Shown piece by piece: positions 2,897 to 16,419 of a stretch of DNA of 42,883 nucleotides. The position numbers and the translations under genes were made by a program. Source of the DNA: Nanoarchaeales archaeon. GTDB taxonomy: Archaea > Nanobdellota > Nanobdellia > Woesearchaeales > UBA583. The stretch lies in assembly GCA_013215525.1 (NCBI GenBank), contig JABSQY010000009.1, positions 1-42,883 on the forward strand. Direction: 5' to 3'. The notes beneath the pieces are model-generated. The model saw nothing but the letters and a program-made list of their open reading frames with translations, made no database searches and had not been told where the DNA came from. How positions within the stretch are numbered: position 1 is the first letter of the stretch; each line of letters opens with the position of its first letter.

Positions 2897-3493
2897 ATGA
2901 ACTACAACCACATCAAGCCAGGTACACTTGAAATATATTGCGGCCCTATGAAATCAGGAAAAACAAGAGAAATTCTTCACAAAATAGATAAAATTAAATA
3001 TTTAGAAAATTGTAACTTTTTATTTATTAAACCAAATATAGATACACGTGAAAGCTTTATTAAATCAAGATTTTCAGAAATGAAAGAACAATGTGAAACT
3101 GTGGATGAAAATAATCCAAATCAAATATTAAGTTTAATTAAATCTAATTTAGATTTATTAATAATTGATGAAATTCAATTCTTTTCAGAAGAGATAGTTA
3201 AAGTAATTGAAAAAATTTTAAAAACAGGAATCCATGTAGTAGTTGCAGGACTTGACACTGATTTTGCAGGAAAAGGATTCGGACAAGTACCACAACTAAT
3301 GACACTTGCAACACACGTTCATAAATTATCTGGAATTTGCGAATATTCTGGTTGCTCAAACTCTTCAATTCGTTCTCAAAGATTAATAGATGGTAAACCT
3401 GCTGGAAAAAATGACAAACAAGTATCAATTGAAGGACAAAACAATACTTATGAATCAAGATGTCTAGTTCATCATGAAGTTGAAGAAGAATAA
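2897..3493 (+). CDS. tdk: Thymidine kinase
   Basis: P-loop GPMKSGKT, IIDEIQFF (Walker B-like), VAGLDTDF, and a C-terminal Cys cluster (C..C...ESRC) typical of type II TK. TATA-like TTTAAAA at 2868..2874 lies 23 nt before the ATG. Confidence 0.9.
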   Translation: MNYNHIKPGTLEIYCGPMKSGKTREILHKIDKIKYLENCNFLFIKPNIDTRESFIKSRFSEMKEQCETVDENNPNQILSLIKSNLDLLIIDEIQFFSEEIVKVIEKILKTGIHVVVAGLDTDFAGKGFGQVPQLMTLATHVHKLSGICEYSGCSNSSIRSQRLIDGKPAGKNDKQVSIEGQNNTYESRCLVHHEVEEE

Positions 3494-5248: not shown

Positions 5249-5755
5249 CTACATCTTAGTCCAAGAAGACTCGAAATATGTAACATCATTCTCAATGTCA
5301 ATCACAGCATTTAACAACTTTTTCTTAGTAGAATGAGCAACTCTATTAAAACTTGCAAAATCGGACACAGCTAGTTTATCTTTATGTGAAACTACAACTA
5401 CAAGCCACTCTGAGTGTCCGTCACCAACAGCTACACCTTTCTCATATATTCTAAAATCAACGCCATAACGTAATCCAGACTGTACATTATAACCTTTTTT
5501 AACCAAATCAGAATAAACTAAAAATACATTAATATCAACTTTTAACTTTTTAATAATCTCATTAAACTCTACTTTTTTATTTTTAGAATTTATAACTTCA
5601 ATCTTATTTTTATTAATTAAAAATAAAACTTCATAAACATTTAAAGAAAACAAATTATCTAATTTTTCACCAAACCCTTTTGAATTCAAACTTTGCCAAG
5701 AATTTTCTTCTAAAACAAAATTGTTTTTAATTAATTGAACTTTAAACTTATTCAT
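5249..5755 (-). CDS. endA: tRNA-splicing (intron) endonuclease, short homotetramer-type subunit
   Basis: GLRYGVDFRIYEKG, GHSEWLVVVV and NRVAHSTKKKL match the EndA catalytic Y/H/K region. The start overlaps the upstream gene's stop by 8 nt (ATGAATAA). Confidence 0.8.
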   Translation of the reverse strand: MNKFKVQLIKNNFVLEENSWQSLNSKGFGEKLDNLFSLNVYEVLFLINKNKIEVINSKNKKVEFNEIIKKLKVDINVFLVYSDLVKKGYNVQSGLRYGVDFRIYEKGVAVGDGHSEWLVVVVSHKDKLAVSDFASFNRVAHSTKKKLLNAVIDIENDVTYFESSWTKM

Positions 5756-9473: not shown

Positions 9474-9494
9474 GAATATATGACACATATTTCT

Positions 9495-11645
9495 ATGTTT
9501 AAACATTTTACATTAGACAATTTTAATCTACGTGGAAAAATAGTAGGAATAAGATTAGATATAAATTCACCAATTATTAACGGTAAAATAGTATATAATG
9601 AGAGAATCGCAAGAGCTTGTAAAACTCTTCGAGAATTAGTTAAGGCAGGCGCAAAGGTTGTAATTCTAGCTCACCAAGGACGAGCGGGCAAGCCAGATTG
9701 TTTAAGTCTAAAAAATCATCAAGTTTTAATTCAAGGTGAATTAAAGAAAAAAATCAACTTTTCAAAAGATTTATATCATGATAATTTTTCAAAAAGAATA
9801 CCTAAATTAAAAAATGGAGAAGTTTTATTACTTGAAAATTTAAGATTTTTTGATGATGAAACTAATTTAGAAAAAGAAGATAATAAACTAGACAAATTAT
9901 CTGAAATTTTTGATTACTATATATTTGATGCATTTTCAGTTGCACACAGAAAACACAAGTCCGTTGTAGGGATTAAAGGAGTTCCTATTATCTCTGGAAG
10001 AACAATGGAACGTGAGTTACTTCATTTAGATAAACTAGATCATACAAAAAAACCACATACATACATTTTCGGTGGTGCAAAACCTGATGATTTAGTAATT
10101 TTAATTGAAAAATCATTAAAAAATAAATCTGTTGATAAAATTTTATTAACTGGTGTGATTGGAGAGATGGCGCTTATCTGTAAAGGATATAATCTAGGAT
10201 GTAAAATTGATATGTTAAAAACATATAACTATATTGAAAACATTGACAAATTTAAAGAAATATTTTTAAAATATGAAAATAAATTTGAAATTCCAAAAGA
10301 TGTTGCTATTTTTGATGGGAAAACAAGAATTGAAATTCCAGTTGATAAGTTAGATGAAGAAGAAAATAAAAAATTAGTTGAAAAATATTTAATTCAAGAC
10401 ATTGGAACATTAACAATTGATAGTTATGAAAAATCAATTAAACGAGCTGGTTCAATTTATTATAAAGGACCACAAGGAAATTTTGAAGAACCTCATTTTG
10501 AAAAAGGTACAAAACAAATTCTAAAAGCGTTATCACACGCAAAAGGTTTCACATTCATGGGTGGAGGACACTCTGTAACTGCTGCTAACATGTTTAACTT
10601 TTTAAAAAAAATTAATTATGTGTCGCTTGCTGGTGGAGCGTTAGTTCAACATTTATCTGGAATTAATCTTCCAGCATTTCAAACATTAAAAGATTCCTTT
10701 AAAGAGTTCGAGAAGGCGCATTACGATTTCATTGTATTAGGTTCAAACACTGTAGATATCAAAGTAGATATTCCTGAGAAATTATCACAAATTGAAATCG
10801 GTGAAAAAATTAAAGTAAATGAAAACTTTAAACTATCAAATGGTGGTGGTGGAATTAATGTATCAATCGCATTAACTAAACTAAATGCAAATGTTGGATA
10901 CTTAGGAAAAATATCAACAGAATTTCGTGATCTTTTAGATAAAACATTATCAAAAAATAAAATCGGACTAATTGAATCAAAAGAAACTAAACGTGGAGTT
11001 GCAAAATCAATTTTACTTCAAACTAAAGATAAAGATAGAGTAATCTTTACATATCGTGGACAAAACGATTATTTAGAATTAGAAGACTTTGATTATAAAA
11101 AATTAAACTCAAATAACTTTTATTTAACTGCATTAAATGGAAAATCTATGGTGACACAAATTAAATTAATTAAACTAATGAAAAAGAAAAATAAAAATTC
11201 TATGTTTTGTTATAATCCATCAGCATATTTAATTAAAGATGAAGGAAGACATTTAGATAAATTAATTAAACTAATTGATGTATTAGTATTCAATTTTGAT
11301 GAAGCAAAAGAATTAACTGGAGATAGAGATATGTCAAGTTGCCTGCGAAGTGTATACGCTTTAGGTCCAAAACTTATAGTAATTACTGATGGTGCAAATG
11401 GAAGTTATGCGTACGATGGAGAAAAAGAAGTATATCAAAGACCAAAACCTCCAAAAAGAATTGTTGATACAACTGGAGCAGGTGACTGTTTTGCTGCAAC
11501 ATTTTTCTACTTTATAACAAAAAAATATGGTGTTAAAGCATCACTGCAATATGCAAGCTGGAATGCATCTGCTTTGATTACAAAAAATGGTACAAGTAAT
11601 GGACTTTTAACATTTAGTGAATTAGCTAAAACTAAACGAGCGTAA
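9495..11645 (+). CDS. pgk: Fusion protein: phosphoglycerate kinase (N-terminal ~410 aa) + PfkB/ribokinase-family sugar kinase (C-terminal ~305 aa)
   Basis: PGK part: IRLDINSP, VVILAHQGRAGKPD, LLLENLRFF, FDAFSVAHRKH, IFGGAKPDD, MGGGHS, SLAGGAL. PfkB part, from about 10720: VLGSNTVD, NGGGGINVSIALTKLNANV (PfkB signature 1), DTTGAGDCFAATF (signature 2). It is one uninterrupted frame. The start was moved to 9495 on promoter spacing. Confidence 0.85.
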   Translation: MFKHFTLDNFNLRGKIVGIRLDINSPIINGKIVYNERIARACKTLRELVKAGAKVVILAHQGRAGKPDCLSLKNHQVLIQGELKKKINFSKDLYHDNFSKRIPKLKNGEVLLLENLRFFDDETNLEKEDNKLDKLSEIFDYYIFDAFSVAHRKHKSVVGIKGVPIISGRTMERELLHLDKLDHTKKPHTYIFGGAKPDDLVILIEKSLKNKSVDKILLTGVIGEMALICKGYNLGCKIDMLKTYNYIENIDKFKEIFLKYENKFEIPKDVAIFDGKTRIEIPVDKLDEEENKKLVEKYLIQDIGTLTIDSYEKSIKRAGSIYYKGPQGNFEEPHFEKGTKQILKALSHAKGFTFMGGGHSVTAANMFNFLKKINYVSLAGGALVQHLSGINLPAFQTLKDSFKEFEKAHYDFIVLGSNTVDIKVDIPEKLSQIEIGEKIKVNENFKLSNGGGGINVSIALTKLNANVGYLGKISTEFRDLLDKTLSKNKIGLIESKETKRGVAKSILLQTKDKDRVIFTYRGQNDYLELEDFDYKKLNSNNFYLTALNGKSMVTQIKLIKLMKKKNKNSMFCYNPSAYLIKDEGRHLDKLIKLIDVLVFNFDEAKELTGDRDMSSCLRSVYALGPKLIVITDGANGSYAYDGEKEVYQRPKPPKRIVDTTGAGDCFAATFFYFITKKYGVKASLQYASWNASALITKNGTSNGLLTFSELAKTKRA

Positions 11646-11689: not shown

Positions 11690-12844
11690 ATGACAAATAA
11701 TACAAATTTTATACTTAACTATTTTAAAGATAAAGATAGTAAAAGTAATATTGTAAATTTAACTAAAATATTTTCACTTGTATTTTTAATTTTATTATTT
11801 ATATTTATTTTATTTTTTGTTAATTCAGACATTAAAAATTCTAAAACTATTTCTAAAGAATTACATATTTTAAATTGGGATGATTATACTGGAACTCCTG
11901 AACTAATTGAAAAATTTGAAAGTTTATATGGTGTTAAAGTAAATATTTATACCTATCTATCTGACTATGAAGTTTTTGATAGGGATTTGTCAGAATATGA
12001 TTTAATTCTTGTAAGAGAATCTTTAATATCTGAACTTAGAAATCAAAAATTACTTTCAAAATTAAATTTTAAAAATTTAGATAATATGGAATCATTATCA
12101 ACAGATTGTAAATTATCAAACTCTAATTATAATTATTTTATTCCAATGATTTGGGGTACGACAGGAGTTTTAATTAATAAAGAATTAATTCCAAATCATC
12201 AAACAAGTTGGGATGTTTTATGGGATAAAAAATATAAAAATAAAACAGTTATGATGAATAATGTTGAAGAAGTACTAATTGCAAATTCTATGAATACATT
12301 ATCAAAAGCAGCCCCTAACTCTGCATATGAGATAGATATGGTAAAAAAATTTATAATTTTTCAAAATAGAAATTTATATGGATATTATGAATCTTCGAGA
12401 GATTTAGAAATACTTTTTAGAAATGGAGATATATGGGCAGCTCAAGCATATAGTGACGCTTTATCATATTTTGAAACATCTAAAAATTTAACTTATTATA
12501 TTCCAATAGAAGGTGCAAATAAATGGATTGATGGTTTTGTAATTCCAAAATCATCTCCTAATAAATATACTGCGCAATTATTTTCAAATTTTTTACTTGA
12601 AGAAAATAATAATGCAGAAATTGCACTTTATTTTCAAATGCCAACTTGTAATGAAAAATCTAAAGTACATTTAGGTGAAGAATTTTTATCAAATGAAGCA
12701 ATTTATCCAAATAAATATGTGAAATCTAGATTAATTTTTGCAAATGATTTTCAATTAAATTCAAAATTAAATAACTTTAAAGAAGAGATATCTCAAATAA
12801 TGGAAAATAATCATTGGGAACTTATAGAGGAAAATGAAGAATAA
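11690..12844 (+). CDS. PotD/PotF-like polyamine-type ABC substrate-binding protein, N-terminally anchored
   Basis: LHILNWDDYTGTPELIEKFESLYGVKVNIYTY, YFIPMIWGTTGVLINKELIP and SWDVLWDKKYKNKTVMMNN follow the PotD family pattern. There is an N-terminal TM helix. No permease or ATPase gene is adjacent. Confidence 0.65.
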   Translation: MTNNTNFILNYFKDKDSKSNIVNLTKIFSLVFLILLFIFILFFVNSDIKNSKTISKELHILNWDDYTGTPELIEKFESLYGVKVNIYTYLSDYEVFDRDLSEYDLILVRESLISELRNQKLLSKLNFKNLDNMESLSTDCKLSNSNYNYFIPMIWGTTGVLINKELIPNHQTSWDVLWDKKYKNKTVMMNNVEEVLIANSMNTLSKAAPNSAYEIDMVKKFIIFQNRNLYGYYESSRDLEILFRNGDIWAAQAYSDALSYFETSKNLTYYIPIEGANKWIDGFVIPKSSPNKYTAQLFSNFLLEENNNAEIALYFQMPTCNEKSKVHLGEEFLSNEAIYPNKYVKSRLIFANDFQLNSKLNNFKEEISQIMENNHWELIEENEE

Positions 12845-13567: not shown

Positions 13568-14200
13568 ATGGTTGATATGAAAATACATAATTTTTATATG
13601 TATTTTACAGTTTTTTTATTCTCTCTAGTTATATTATTGTCTGGAACATTATATTATTTTGAAAATAATCTTAATAAAATTATTATTGAAAATATTGTAA
13701 TTTTAGATACAAATTATGGTGAGATAAAAATTGAATTATTTATTGATAAAAGTCCTATCACAGCAGGTAATTTTAAAATACTTGTTGAAGAAGGTTTTTA
13801 TGATAGAATTAAATTTCATCGAGTAATAGATGGATTTATGATTCAAGGTGGAGATCCAAACTCAATTAACAATATTAATATTGATTCTTGGGGTACTGGA
13901 GATGCAGGTTATGTAATTGAAGACGAATTCATTGAAGGATTATCTAATAAAAAGTGGACACTGTCTATGGCAAACTCTGGACCAAACACTGGTTCAAGTC
14001 AGTTTTTTATTAATCTTCAAGATAATACATTTTTAGATTGGGACAAAGAACCTTCATCTTCAAAACATCCAGTATTTGGAATTGTAATTTCAGGAATGGA
14101 TATTGTTGATTTAATATCAAAAGTTCCAACTGAGGGAAGACCAACAGATAGACCACTTGAACCAGTAATTATTAATACTGCAAGTATGTCATTTGAATAA
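13568..14200 (+). CDS. Cyclophilin-type peptidyl-prolyl isomerase, N-terminal TM anchor
   Basis: SPITAGNFKILVEEGFYD, KFHRVIDGFMIQGGDP, LSMANSGPNTGSSQFFIN, HPVFG. The N-terminal helix is FTVFLFSLVILLSGTLYYF. Confidence 0.9.
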   Translation: MVDMKIHNFYMYFTVFLFSLVILLSGTLYYFENNLNKIIIENIVILDTNYGEIKIELFIDKSPITAGNFKILVEEGFYDRIKFHRVIDGFMIQGGDPNSINNINIDSWGTGDAGYVIEDEFIEGLSNKKWTLSMANSGPNTGSSQFFINLQDNTFLDWDKEPSSSKHPVFGIVISGMDIVDLISKVPTEGRPTDRPLEPVIINTASMSFE

Positions 14201-14292: not shown

Positions 14293-14832
14293 ATGGCAAA
14301 TGATATCGCAGTATTTAAAACAAATATGGGAACTTTCAAAGTTAAACTATACTTAGAAAAAAGTCCAATTACAGCAGGTAATTTTAAACAATTAGTTGAA
14401 TCTGGTTTCTATAATGAGACAAAATTTCACAGAGTAATTACAGATTTTATGATTCAAGGTGGAGATCCTTTATCTAAAAATGATAACTTAAAGAAAAAAT
14501 GGGGGACTGGGGGAGCAGAAAGAATTAAAGATGAATTCATTAGAGGTTTATCAAATGTTCGTGGAAGTTTATCAATGGCAAACTCAGGACCAAATTCAGG
14601 TTCATCACAGTTTTTCATCAACACAGTAAACAATGACTTTTTAGATTGGGACAAAGGAGATCAAAGATCAAAACATCCAGTATTTGGAGAAATTATTGCA
14701 GGTATGGATGTAATTGATAATATCTCAATTGTAAAAGTTGGAAGAAATGATATTCCAGAAAAAAACATTACAATCTCATCAGCTTTTATGGAATCTGCAA
14801 AAAATCCTCCAAAAGAAAAAAAAGCAGCTTAA
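14293..14832 (+). CDS. Cyclophilin-type peptidyl-prolyl isomerase, no signal sequence (cytoplasmic)
   Basis: Same cyclophilin motifs (FHRVITDFMIQGGDP, SMANSGPNSGSSQFFIN, HPVFG). TATA TATTTAAA at 14264..14271 lies 22 nt before the ATG. Confidence 0.9.
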   Translation: MANDIAVFKTNMGTFKVKLYLEKSPITAGNFKQLVESGFYNETKFHRVITDFMIQGGDPLSKNDNLKKKWGTGGAERIKDEFIRGLSNVRGSLSMANSGPNSGSSQFFINTVNNDFLDWDKGDQRSKHPVFGEIIAGMDVIDNISIVKVGRNDIPEKNITISSAFMESAKNPPKEKKAA

Positions 14833-15804: not shown

Positions 15805-16419
15805 ATGAAGAAATTTTCATTAATTTTACTAACTATGTTCGCATTAGTATTTGCGGGATGTAGTAACTCAGGACAAAGCGCAGACACATCATCTGAGACT
15901 GATGTAGCAACTGGTAATCCAATTGCTGTATTCGATACAACAAAAGGAACTTTTAAAATTGAATTATTTGTTGAAGAATCTCCAATTACAGCTGGGAATT
16001 TCAGAGACCTTGTCGCAAGTGGATTTTATGATAATACAAAATTCCATAGAGTAATTAAAAATTTTATGATTCAAGGTGGGGACCCAAATACTAAAGATGA
16101 TAATTTAAAATCTCGTTGGGGAACTGGTGGAAGTGGAACAACAATTGAAGATGAATTTATTGAAGGTTTATCAAATGTTCGTGGAAGTTTATCTATGGCA
16201 AACTCAGGACCAAACTCAGGAAGTAGTCAATTTTTTATTAATGTAAAAGATAACTTAGGATTAGATTGGAATAATAATATGCAACCTAATTCAAAACATC
16301 CAGTATTTGGAAAAATTGTTGAAGGTATGGATATAATTGATGCAATCGTATCAGTTCCAACTGCTGCACGTGATGTACCTGTTGATGCAATCATTATTAC
16401 ATCAGCAACAATTGAATAA
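15805..16419 (+). CDS. Cyclophilin-type peptidyl-prolyl isomerase, lipoprotein form (lipobox VFAGC|S)
   Basis: MKKFSLILLTMFALVFAGCSNSG is followed by a complete cyclophilin domain. Bases 16148..16220 are about 93 percent identical to 14528..14600. Confidence 0.9.
   Translation: MKKFSLILLTMFALVFAGCSNSGQSADTSSETDVATGNPIAVFDTTKGTFKIELFVEESPITAGNFRDLVASGFYDNTKFHRVIKNFMIQGGDPNTKDDNLKSRWGTGGSGTTIEDEFIEGLSNVRGSLSMANSGPNSGSSQFFINVKDNLGLDWNNNMQPNSKHPVFGKIVEGMDIIDAIVSVPTAARDVPVDAIIITSATIE

What the first reader, a model, noticed from the sequence alone, without database searches (positions are those of the whole stretch)
9495..11645. Single-polypeptide fusion of phosphoglycerate kinase with a PfkB-family sugar kinase
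One uninterrupted frame joins a full archaeal-type PGK to a complete PfkB kinase that has both signature motifs, with the junction near 10720. I am not aware of this architecture being described. PfkB enzymes include ribokinase, nucleoside kinases and the ribose-1-phosphate kinase of the archaeal pentose-bisphosphate (nucleoside degradation) route, whose RuBisCO step yields 3-phosphoglycerate, the PGK substrate. A fusion could therefore couple entry and exit phosphorylations of a nucleoside-to-glycolysis salvage route in a reduced genome (inference). The PGK part also reads GGGHS where PGKs usually have GGGD(S/T), and SLAGGAL where they have STGGGA. The PGK half might therefore be catalytically modified.
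Basis: partly seen in the sequence, partly recalled or inferred. Interest (0 to 1): 0.6.

Follow-up and report, generated by a model that had tools for sequence, protein, structure and literature searches.

The report
Fused phosphoglycerate kinase–PfkB sugar kinase
A small-genome (DPANN, Woesearchaeota-type) archaeon makes one protein that joins the glycolytic enzyme phosphoglycerate kinase to a second, PfkB-family kinase, and gene-order and active-site evidence suggest this second half is the phosphofructokinase these archaea are reported to lack.

Summary
One open frame (9495/9480..11645, +) encodes a complete archaeal-type PGK (residues 12-394), then a predicted helix, then a complete PfkB kinase (415-716).

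The fusion is not an assembly artefact. About 95 fused homologues (41-86% identity) exist, and 19 of 20 genomes of the window's family carry it. It was not found in 149 genomes of 135 other families of the order, nor elsewhere in a 401-genome phylum sample. It is the genome's only PGK, and its catalytic residues are intact.

RuBisCO was found in 0 of 20 family genomes and no R15P isomerase was found in the own genome. GGGHS is the normal archaeal PGK motif, and SLAGGAL is common in unfused DPANN PGKs.

In other families and a second order, unfused orthologues sit in a gap-pgk-pfkB-(D-lactate-DH-like)-fba-tpi operon. In 18 genomes pfkB lies directly upstream of the class I aldolase. The kinase shares the E. 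coli Pfk-2 active-site solution: motif-I Lys replaced by Gly, plus a lid Lys aligned to Lys27.

My best reading is a bifunctional PGK plus ATP-dependent 6-phosphofructokinase candidate. No paper describing it was found. This scan noted the same fusion before on another genome (e1-775850).

The parts
9495..11645 (+). CDS of the fused PGK-PfkB protein (716 aa from Met6; an upstream in-frame ATG at 9480 would give 721 aa)
   Evidence: ORF list and translation. Homologues are 716 aa and Met6 is nearly invariant.
9513..10661 (+). Phosphoglycerate kinase domain, archaeal type (residues 12-394)
   Evidence: Pfam PF00162 scores 302 bits. The best solved relative is P. horikoshii PGK 2CUN (E 3e-66; Foldseek TM 0.91 by target). 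Residues R25, D27, N29, R42, H65, R68, R122, H156, R157, K201, E336 and GGGH are present.
10560..10574 (+). GGGHS motif of the PGK half (residues 361-365)
   Evidence: It is identical to the motif in P. horikoshii PGK. H364 is kept in 92 of 94 fused homologues. This is the archaeal norm, not a modification.
10623..10643 (+). SLAGGAL motif of the PGK half (residues 382-388)
   Evidence: It is conserved in the fused family (L 84/94, A 86/94). It is also present in many unfused DPANN PGKs.
10662..10721 (+). Junction: the C-terminal PGK helix running into the first strand of the PfkB domain (residues 395-414)
   Evidence: The AlphaFold2 model has helix 398-413 followed by strand 417-420, with pLDDT about 90. 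In an unfused relative, PGK ends ...LPGLEVLK, then TAA, then ATG of pfkB in the same frame.
10722..11627 (+). PfkB-family kinase domain (residues 415-716)
   Evidence: Pfam PF00294 scores 135 bits. NCBIfam alignments span 415-716, and no equivalog cut-off is reached.
10806..10808 (+). Codon of Lys443, a lid lysine aligned to Lys27 of E. coli Pfk-2
   Evidence: It is invariant in 94 of 94 fused homologues and in all order-level orthologues examined. hhalign pairs it with Pfk-2 Lys27. The role of Lys27 is described in PMC6429617.
10842..10862 (+). Motif I, GGGGINV (residues 455-461), with Gly in place of the usual motif-I Lys
   Evidence: GGGG is invariant. E. coli Pfk-2 has GGGGINVA, RbsK has GGKGANQA and FruK has AGKGINVA.
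11292..11303 (+). NXXE motif (N605-E608) of the PfkB half
   Evidence: It is invariant in 94 of 94 homologues.
11472..11486 (+). TGAGD motif (residues 665-669) with the catalytic base Asp669
   Evidence: It is invariant in 94 of 94 homologues. It aligns to the GAGD motif and Asp256 of Pfk-2.

Best explanation
The gene encodes a genuine bifunctional enzyme. The N-terminal half is an active archaeal-type phosphoglycerate kinase, the organism's only one. A short helix joins it rigidly to a PfkB-family kinase.

The fusion arose in the ancestor of one family of this DPANN order. Its source was neighbouring pgk and pfkB genes of a conserved glycolytic operon (gap-pgk-pfkB-fba-tpi), probably through loss of the pgk stop codon.

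The PfkB half is most likely the lineage's ATP-dependent 6-phosphofructokinase. It would make the fructose-1,6-bisphosphate that the class I aldolase cleaves. It appears to use the E. coli Pfk-2 catalytic solution, in which a lysine from the lid, probably of the partner subunit, replaces the missing motif-I lysine.

Shown:
- the architecture
- its conservation and phylogenetic range
- intact catalytic residues in both halves
- the operon context of the orthologues
- the lack of other PFK families in the family's genomes

Inferred:
- the substrate (fructose-6-phosphate)
- dimeric action in trans
- any kinetic benefit of joining an ATP-forming kinase to an ATP-using one
For: 1. Architecture and reality. 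Pfam finds PGK and PfkB in one open frame. About 95 fused clusters exist. The fusion is present in 19 of 20 family genomes.

2. The PGK half looks functional. It is the only PF00162 hit in the genome. All key residues are intact. GAPDH is present in 20 of 20 family genomes.

3. Origin. Unfused orthologues are reciprocal best hits and form the sister clade with SH-aLRT 96-99. They lie directly after pgk in several operons:
- G017: GAPDH > PGK > PfkB > class I aldolase > D-2-hydroxyacid dehydrogenase > TIM
- G424: GAPDH > PGK > PfkB > aldolase > TIM
- G179 and G337, in another order: similar operons
In G424, pgk's TAA is followed at once, in frame, by pfkB's ATG.

4. Link between kinase and aldolase. 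In 18 genomes of 17 families, pfkB lies less than 1 kb upstream of the DhnA-type class I aldolase on the same strand. It lies within 5 kb in 6 more (coordinates). Of 44 genomes with this aldolase, 43 have the kinase. None of the 18 genomes without the kinase has the aldolase.

5. No other PFK was found. PfkA-type PFK is in 0 of 20 and ADP-PFK in 0 of 20 family genomes. An aldolase is present: DhnA-type in 16 of 20, plus class II in 2 of the remaining 4. The own genome has the aldolase, TIM, GAPDH and transketolase, but no FBPase of classes I, II, IV or V.

6. Active site. Motif I is GGGG(I/V)NV, as in Pfk-2 and unlike RbsK or FruK. Invariant Lys443 aligns with Pfk-2 Lys27 and Arg520 with Arg105. 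In the fused family, K/R445 aligns with Arg29, and K509 lies next to the Arg90 position. PMC6429617 describes exactly this Lys-to-Gly swap, compensated by Lys27, as what accommodates fructose-6-phosphate.

7. Literature reports pfk as missing from all or most Woesearchaeota genomes (PMC5994134, PMC8421398).
Against: - No curated kinase model reaches its cut-off. The best overall similarity is to ribokinases (TIGR02152 at 99 bits; hhalign probability 99.2% to E. coli RbsK against 96.9% to Pfk-2).
- In the tree, E. coli Pfk-2 is not a close relative. The shared active-site features would therefore be convergent, or the alignment in the lid could be off by a residue.
- The Arg29 and Arg90 equivalents are basic only in the fused family, not in the unfused orthologues.
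- The kinase is not complementary to PfkA. Of the 29 order genomes with a PfkA-type PFK, 26 also have it, and in G065 the two genes are adjacent.
- No PGI was found in the own genome. Fructose-6-phosphate would have to come from the pentose-phosphate route or from a fructokinase-like paralogue.
- The aldolase scores below the class I FBA cut-off (about 200 bits against 430) and about as well to ADH synthase models.
- No enzyme activity has been measured.
Confidence: 0.55

Rival explanations
1. The PfkB half phosphorylates another ketose or ketose phosphate whose product the neighbouring class I aldolase cleaves. Candidates are 1-phosphofructokinase (F1P to FBP), tagatose-6-phosphate kinase, or a ketohexokinase making fructose-1-phosphate. 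It is fused to an ordinary PGK.
For: The kinase-aldolase gene pairing only says that the kinase product is probably the aldolase substrate. DeoC/LacD/DhnA-type aldolases include tagatose-bisphosphate aldolases. Ketohexokinase is among the solved relatives (9P6Q). The 6-phosphate-binding Arg29 and Arg90 equivalents are not conserved in the unfused orthologues.
Against: The operon also holds TIM, GAPDH and PGK, the straight path from FBP. E. coli FruK keeps the motif-I lysine (AGKGINVA), whereas this family has the Pfk-2 form. The 1-PFK and tagatose-kinase models score only 18-63 bits and match mainly the C-terminal part. No source of F1P or tagatose-6-P was looked for.
Confidence: 0.15
2. The PfkB half is a ribokinase or nucleoside kinase for pentose or nucleoside salvage. 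It would feed the non-oxidative pentose-phosphate route and hence lower glycolysis. The fusion to PGK would be a by-product of gene neighbourhood.
For: Ribokinase is the best NCBIfam model (99 bits). Ribokinases, YdjH, adenosine kinases and the MJ0406 nucleoside kinase are the best solved relatives. DPANN archaea depend on salvage. Transketolase, thymidine kinase and an AMP-phosphorylase-like gene are present. The literature assumes a pentose-phosphate bypass of the missing PFK.
Against: The ribokinase model is far below its cut-off (99 against 300). The ribose-contacting residues of ribokinase are not kept: Lys43 becomes Gly, Asn14 becomes Thr/Val, and Glu143 becomes Gly or a variable residue. 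The own genome has a separate paralogue (C119) that fits the ribokinase, R1P-kinase and nucleoside-kinase models better, at 120, 110 and 100 bits. A ribokinase has no obvious reason to sit directly upstream of the aldolase in 17 families.
Confidence: 0.17
3. One reading: the PfkB half is a ribose-1-phosphate kinase. The fusion would couple entry and exit of a RuBisCO-dependent pentose-bisphosphate nucleoside-degradation route that ends in 3-phosphoglycerate.
For: R1P kinases are PfkB enzymes. An AMP-phosphorylase-like gene exists in the genome (494 bits, just under the 535 cut-off).
Against: RuBisCO was found in 0 of 20 family genomes, including two single-contig genomes. No IF-2B/R15P-isomerase family gene was found in the own genome. 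The R1P-kinase models score 58 bits against 330 and 50 against 500. Operon partners of the orthologues are aldolase, TIM and GAPDH, not nucleoside-pathway genes.
Confidence: 0.03
4. The fusion is an artefact: two adjacent genes were joined by a sequencing or assembly error.
For: Unfused adjacent pgk-pfkB pairs exist in relatives. One relative shows an overlapping split pair that could be a frameshift.
Against: The same continuous frame, with a conserved linker, occurs in about 95 clusters from many independent samples and in 19 of 20 family genomes. The linker region is conserved and is modelled as a confident helix.
Confidence: 0.01

Closest known systems
Bifunctional phosphoglycerate kinase/triosephosphate isomerase of Thermotoga (NCBIfam NF010569)
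   Same: It is a glycolytic fusion with PGK at the N-terminus and a second glycolytic enzyme encoded downstream in the same frame. It also derives from neighbouring operon genes (the latter from general knowledge).
   Different: Only the PGK part of that model matches (profile positions 5-394 of 645; 226 bits against a cut-off of 883). Here the partner is a PfkB kinase, not TIM.
E. coli phosphofructokinase-2 (PfkB; structures 3N1C, 3CQD)
   Same: It has the same fold family. Motif I is GGGGINV, with Gly instead of the family's usual Lys. A lid lysine (Lys27 in Pfk-2, Lys443 here) sits at the same spacing. Arg105 matches Arg520, and the GAGD catalytic Asp is shared.
   Different: Identity is only about 19%. 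It is not a close relative in the tree. The Pfk-2/1-PFK models score far below their cut-offs. Pfk-2 is not fused to PGK.
Ribokinase (E. coli RbsK, 1RKD; TIGR02152)
   Same: It is the best-scoring curated model and shows full-length alignment (hhalign probability 99.2%). The NXXE and GAGD motifs and the sugar-binding Asp (Asp16 in RbsK, Asp426 here) are shared.
   Different: The score is 99 bits against a cut-off of 300. Motif-I Lys43, Asn14 and Glu143 are not conserved, and PGET is replaced by G(D/E)K.
Archaeal PFK-B type kinases: Aeropyrum pernix ATP-PFK and M. jannaschii MJ0406 nucleoside kinase (2C49)
   Same: These are ribokinase-like archaeal PfkB enzymes, one of which is a true 6-phosphofructokinase (from my own knowledge of the literature, not tested here). 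MJ0406 is among the solved relatives (104 bits with the family profile).
   Different: The relationship to the A. pernix enzyme could not be tested because no sequence was to hand. Those enzymes are stand-alone proteins.
Pyrococcus horikoshii phosphoglycerate kinase (2CUN)
   Same: It is the closest solved PGK (E 3e-66; 32% identity; TM 0.91). It shares the archaeal GGGHS motif and lacks the bacterial/eukaryotic second lysine after GGAK.
   Different: It is a stand-alone protein of 410 aa and has STGGGAM where this protein has SLAGGAL.

Membership tests
Phosphoglycerate kinase (PF00162) | Full-length match to the PGK profile above the gathering score | tested here: met
   The score is 302 bits against 27, covering profile positions 1-378 of 379.
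Phosphoglycerate kinase (PF00162) | 3-PG-binding basic patch and nucleotide/phosphoryl-transfer residues (RxDxN, R, HxGR, ENLR, AHR, GGAK, GPxGxFE, GGG(H/D)) | tested here: met
   All are present in the window's protein and in about 85 of 94 fused homologues.
PfkB carbohydrate kinase family (PF00294) | Profile match plus the GG motif, the NXXE motif and the TGAGD motif with the catalytic Asp | tested here: met
   The score is 135 bits against 25.8. GGGG455-458, N605xxE608 and T665GAGD669 are invariant in 94 of 94 homologues.
Ribokinase (TIGR02152 / NF008353) | Score above the curated equivalog cut-off | tested here: not met
   Scores are 99 bits against 299.65 and 60 bits against 341.
Ribokinase (TIGR02152 / NF008353) | Ribose-contacting residues Asn14, Lys43 (GGKG) and Glu143 | tested here: not met
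   They align to Thr/Val424, Gly457 and Gly554 (variable).
Pfk-2-type 6-phosphofructokinase / hexose-phosphate kinase (TIGR03168, TIGR03828, NF007632) | Score above the curated cut-offs | tested here: not met
   Scores are 63 against 216, 61 against 292 and 19 against 353, and only the C-terminal part matches.
Pfk-2-type 6-phosphofructokinase / hexose-phosphate kinase (TIGR03168, TIGR03828, NF007632) | Motif-I Lys replaced by Gly, with a compensating lid lysine (Lys27) | tested here: met
   GGGG(I/V)NV is present, and invariant Lys443 aligns to Lys27. The feature is defined in PMC6429617.
Pfk-2-type 6-phosphofructokinase / hexose-phosphate kinase (TIGR03168, TIGR03828, NF007632) | 6-phosphate-binding Arg90 and Arg29, and 1-phosphate-binding Arg105 | tested here: inconclusive
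   Arg520 aligns to Arg105 and is nearly invariant. K/R445 (aligned to Arg29) and K509 (adjacent to Arg90) are basic only in the fused family, not in unfused orthologues.
Pfk-2-type 6-phosphofructokinase / hexose-phosphate kinase (TIGR03168, TIGR03828, NF007632) | [quoted passage not shown] | not testable with these tools
   This needs an enzyme assay.
Ribose-1-phosphate kinase of the pentose-bisphosphate pathway (NF053626, NF041134) | Score above the curated cut-offs | tested here: not met
   Scores are 58 bits against 330 and 50 bits against 500. Paralogue C119 scores higher, at 110 and 86 bits.
Ribose-1-phosphate kinase of the pentose-bisphosphate pathway (NF053626, NF041134) | Pathway partners in the genome: form III RuBisCO, R15P isomerase, AMP phosphorylase | tested here: not met
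   RuBisCO was found in 0 of 20 family genomes. No IF-2B family gene was found in the own genome. Only an AMP-phosphorylase-like gene is present (494 bits against 535). The own genome is 88.6% complete.
Bifunctional PGK/TIM (NF010569) | Match over both halves of the 645-position profile, above the cut-off | tested here: not met
   Only positions 5-394 match, at 226 bits against 883.

The most novel reading that the evidence does not exclude
The PfkB half and its unfused orthologues are the 'missing' ATP-dependent phosphofructokinase of Woesearchaeota-type DPANN archaea. About 125 of 151 sampled genomes of the order carry an orthologue. If so, most of these organisms run a complete Embden-Meyerhof trunk from fructose-6-phosphate, encoded by a gap-pgk-pfkB-fba-tpi operon. 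In one family the ATP-forming PGK and the ATP-consuming PFK would have become one polypeptide, which may recycle adenine nucleotide locally between the payoff and investment steps of glycolysis.
Probability: 0.45. Interest if true: 0.72.

Novelty: new variant of a known kind. Interest (0 to 1): 0.6.

Why it matters
Metabolic reconstructions of Woesearchaeota and related DPANN archaea state that phosphofructokinase is missing and glycolysis is discontinuous (PMC5994134, PMC8421398). That gap is used to argue for dependence on partner organisms.

A conserved PfkB kinase sits in the glycolytic operon, directly upstream of the aldolase, and is fused to PGK in one family. This gives a concrete candidate for the missing step that can be cloned and assayed.

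The fusion is hidden in databases under the name 'phosphoglycerate kinase', so automated pathway calls overlook its second activity. Joining an ATP-producing and an ATP-consuming glycolytic kinase is, as far as I could find, an undescribed architecture. Duplicates that keep a catalytically dead PGK domain suggest that this domain also has a structural role.

Tried and rejected
- Complex prediction on the PGK half against the PfkB half gave no verdict. It is not used as evidence either way.
- The search for related loci in genome contigs with the fused alignment was swamped by generic PfkB patterns and returned only distant, unrelated kinases. I used the genome search instead.
- Neighbourhood clustering around 20 fused genes found no conserved neighbours within the family. 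The window's own neighbours are a surface protein, a 212-aa ORF and a PotD-like binding protein, and they say nothing about function.
- The bacterial promoter/terminator scan was uninformative in this AT-rich archaeal DNA: 40 sites against 34.5 expected, and no terminators.
- The roughly 320-aa insert of the 1014-aa variant (P0070) matched no Pfam family, is not a second PfkB domain, and had no Atlas look-alike.
- The careful maximum-likelihood tree did not finish in two runs. The quick tree with SH-aLRT support is what I cite.
- I considered a strict complementarity argument, that the kinase replaces PfkA, and dropped it. Of the 29 genomes with PfkA, 26 also have the kinase.
Full report
**1. 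Observation**

The + strand carries one open frame from ATG 9480 (or Met6 at 9495) to the stop at 11643-11645.
- Pfam places a full PGK domain at residues 12-394 (302 bits) and a PfkB domain at 441-709 (135 bits).
- NCBIfam alignments extend the PfkB domain to 415-716.
- The DNA at 10600-10840 has no stop or frame break.
- The 716-aa homologues start at Met6, which is nearly invariant.
- The window has about 26% G+C. The genome (1.75 Mb, 172 contigs, 88.6% complete) is a DPANN archaeon. Named homologues come from 'Nanoarchaeota' and 'Woesearchaeota' MAGs.

**2. The fusion is real, and confined to one lineage**

A search of 5.8 billion proteins found about 95 clusters of 700-790 aa with both domains, at 41-86% identity. 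They come from many independent metagenomes, and all that carry a name are called 'phosphoglycerate kinase'.

Distribution in whole genomes:
- The fusion is present in 19 of 20 species genomes of the window's family. The exception is a 0.5-Mb genome that is 71% complete.
- It was not found in 149 genomes drawn from 135 other families of the same order.
- In a 401-genome sample of the phylum it was found only in the window's family, in 5 of 5 genomes.
- Three strong hits in another order turned out to be separate, abutting genes.

The tallies include the unpublished genomes G132 and G112. No specific example in this report rests on them.

No solved structure covers both halves. All top Foldseek hits are PGKs that align to about 410-437 columns. 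The AlphaFold2 model (pLDDT 90, pTM 0.76) shows the last PGK helix (398-413) running straight into the first PfkB strand (417-420). The link is therefore short and ordered, not a floppy tether.

**3. The PGK half is an ordinary, active-looking archaeal PGK**

- It is the only PF00162 hit in the genome.
- Its closest solved relative is Pyrococcus horikoshii PGK (2CUN, E 3e-66), which itself reads GGGHS.
- GGGH(S/T) and SLAGGAL-like motifs are common in unfused DPANN PGKs.
- R25, D27, N29, R42, H65, R68, R122, H156, R157, K201, E336 and GGGH are present here and in about 85 of 94 fused homologues.

A minority of fused homologues have lost the 3-PG-binding Arg/His residues while every PfkB motif stays intact. 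These are P0016, P0062, P0063, P0067, P0074, P0076, P0078, P0081 and P0092.
- They fall in three separate clades.
- In the three genomes where this could be checked, a second intact PGK is present: G154, G161 and G151.

So after duplication the kinase half is what selection keeps, and the dead PGK domain is retained.

**4. The PfkB half belongs to no characterised subfamily**

No NCBIfam equivalog reaches its cut-off:

| Model | Score (bits) | Cut-off (bits) |
|---|---|---|
| Ribokinase | 99 | 300 |
| IolC | 91 | 300 |
| R1P kinase (NF053626) | 58 | 330 |
| R1P kinase (NF041134) | 50 | 500 |
| Nucleoside kinase | 54 | 450 |

The general PfkB machinery is invariant in 94 of 94 homologues: GS-N423-x-x-D426, GGGG455-458, N460, N605xxE608 and T665GAGD669.

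The genome has five other PfkB genes:
- a fructokinase-like one (C109)
- a ribokinase/R1P-kinase/nucleoside-kinase-like one (C119)
- two HldE genes
- a stand-alone copy 46% identical to the fused half (C103)

In the tree, the stand-alone copies (C103, P0122, P0125) nest inside the fused clade. They are therefore secondary losses of the PGK part.

**5. Where the fusion came from, and what the kinase does**

A profile of the kinase finds an orthologue scoring at least 250 bits in about 125 of 151 genomes of the order. Paralogues score 207 bits or less. The orthologues are reciprocal best hits of the fused half. They form its sister clade.

Their gene context is glycolytic:

| Genome | Gene order |
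|---|---|
| G017 | GAPDH > PGK > PfkB (8-nt overlap) > 110 aa > DhnA-type class I aldolase > 183 aa > D-2-hydroxyacid dehydrogenase > TIM |
| G145 | Same order |
| G424 (another order) | GAPDH > PGK > PfkB > aldolase > TIM |
| G179 (another order) | GAPDH > PGK > PfkB > dehydrogenase > aldolase |
| G337 (another order) | GAPDH > PGK > PfkB > dehydrogenase |

In G424, pgk ends ...LPGLEVLK-TAA and pfkB's ATG follows at once in the same frame. Loss of one stop codon would reproduce the fusion.

I compared the coordinates.
- pfkB lies less than 1 kb upstream of the aldolase, on the same strand, in 18 genomes of 17 families.
- It lies within 5 kb in 6 more.
- Of 44 genomes with this aldolase, 43 have the kinase.
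- None of the 18 genomes without the kinase has the aldolase.
- Ten of those 18 also lack PGK.

**6. Pathway state of the window's family**

| Enzyme | Family genomes with a match |
|---|---|
| RuBisCO | 0 of 20 |
| PfkA-type PFK | 0 of 20 |
| ADP-PFK | 0 of 20 |
| GAPDH | 20 of 20 |
| DhnA-type aldolase | 16 of 20 |
| Class II aldolase | 2 of the 4 without a DhnA-type aldolase |

- The own genome has the aldolase (C104), TIM (C132), GAPDH (C129) and transketolase.
- It shows no FBPase of classes I, II, IV or V, no PGI and no R15P isomerase.
- It has an AMP-phosphorylase-like gene just under the cut-off.

An aldolase with neither FBPase nor a known PFK needs a kinase to supply fructose-1,6-bisphosphate.

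**7. Active-site comparison**

hhalign of the family profile against E. coli Pfk-2 (probability 96.9%) gives these pairs:
- Lys443 with Lys27
- GGGG(I/V)NV with GGGGINVA
- Arg520 with Arg105
- Asp669 with Asp256

In the fused family, K/R445 matches Arg29 and K509 lies next to the Arg90 position. These two are not basic in the unfused orthologues.

E. coli RbsK reads PGET...GGKGANQA and FruK reads AGKGINVA.

PMC6429617 explains these features:
- In Pfk-2 the family's motif-I lysine is replaced by glycine to make room for OH2 of fructose-6-phosphate.
- Lys27 of the partner subunit takes its place.
- Arg90 and Arg29 hold the 6-phosphate.
- Arg105 holds the 1-phosphate.

The ribokinase residues Asn14, Lys43 and Glu143 are not conserved here.

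Against this, overall similarity is higher to ribokinase (hhalign probability 99.2%). Pfk-2 is not a close relative in the tree. The resemblance is therefore one of active-site design, not of family membership.

**8. Caveat on 'missing PFK'**

The literature says pfk is absent from all (PMC5994134) or most (PMC8421398) Woesearchaeota genomes. In my order sample, PfkA-type PFK occurs in 29 of 151 genomes.
- Of those 29, 26 also have the PfkB orthologue, and in G065 the two genes are adjacent.
- The kinase is therefore not simply a replacement for PfkA.
- E. coli also has both types, but this weakens a pure gap-filling argument.

**9. Verdict**

The RuBisCO/R1P-kinase interpretation and the 'modified PGK' idea are not supported.

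The best-supported reading (about 0.55) is a bifunctional PGK plus PfkB-type 6-phosphofructokinase, born from an operon gene pair. The rivals are another ketose(-phosphate) kinase (0.15) and a ribokinase or nucleoside kinase (0.17).

Any functional gain from the fusion, such as local ADP/ATP recycling or fixed stoichiometry, is inference only.

I found no paper describing the fusion. My operon, distribution and active-site tests were made independently of it.

Noticed in passing
P0016, P0062, P0063, P0067, P0074, P0076, P0078, P0081, P0092 (homologues; e.g. G154:C12, G161:C3, G151:C1:456147-458288): Some fused paralogues have lost the PGK substrate-binding Arg/His residues but keep every PfkB motif. 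They form three independent clades. In the three genomes that could be checked, they co-occur with a second intact PGK. They look like pseudo-PGK domains kept as a scaffold.
   Followed up: partly
G166:C24:1097-4129 (protein P0070, 1014 aa): This variant of the fusion has a roughly 320-residue insert between the PGK and PfkB domains. The insert matches no Pfam family, is not a PfkB domain and has no Atlas look-alike.
   Followed up: partly
G000:C103:919-1845 (locus L145), outside the window: The same genome has a stand-alone PfkB gene 46% identical to the fused half. It nests inside the fused clade in the tree, so it is a secondary 'de-fused' copy.
   Followed up: partly
G000:C161:4356-5861, outside the window: An AMP-phosphorylase-like gene (TIGR03327, 494 bits, cut-off 535) is present, although neither RuBisCO nor an R15P-isomerase family gene was found. 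The fate of its product is unexplained.
   Followed up: no
window 13568-14200, 14293-14832, 15805-16419: Three cyclophilin-type peptidyl-prolyl isomerase genes lie within 3 kb. Two have an N-terminal extension of about 40 residues.
   Followed up: no
window 11690-12844: A PotD-like solute-binding protein is encoded directly downstream of the fusion, with no permease or ATPase gene beside it.
   Followed up: no
window 2897-3493 and 5249-5755: The window encodes a thymidine kinase and a tRNA-splicing endonuclease. The thymidine kinase fits a nucleoside-salvaging lifestyle.
   Followed up: no
G065:C100:10376-12347: In one genome of the order, a PfkA-type phosphofructokinase gene lies directly upstream of the PfkB orthologue. 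The two kinases are therefore not mutually exclusive.
   Followed up: no
order-level PGKs (L173, L176, L177, L178): PGKs of the order come in two flavours. One is archaeal-type (GGGH, SLAGGAL) and the other bacterial-type (GGGD, STGGGAS), which suggests replacement by transfer in some families.
   Followed up: no
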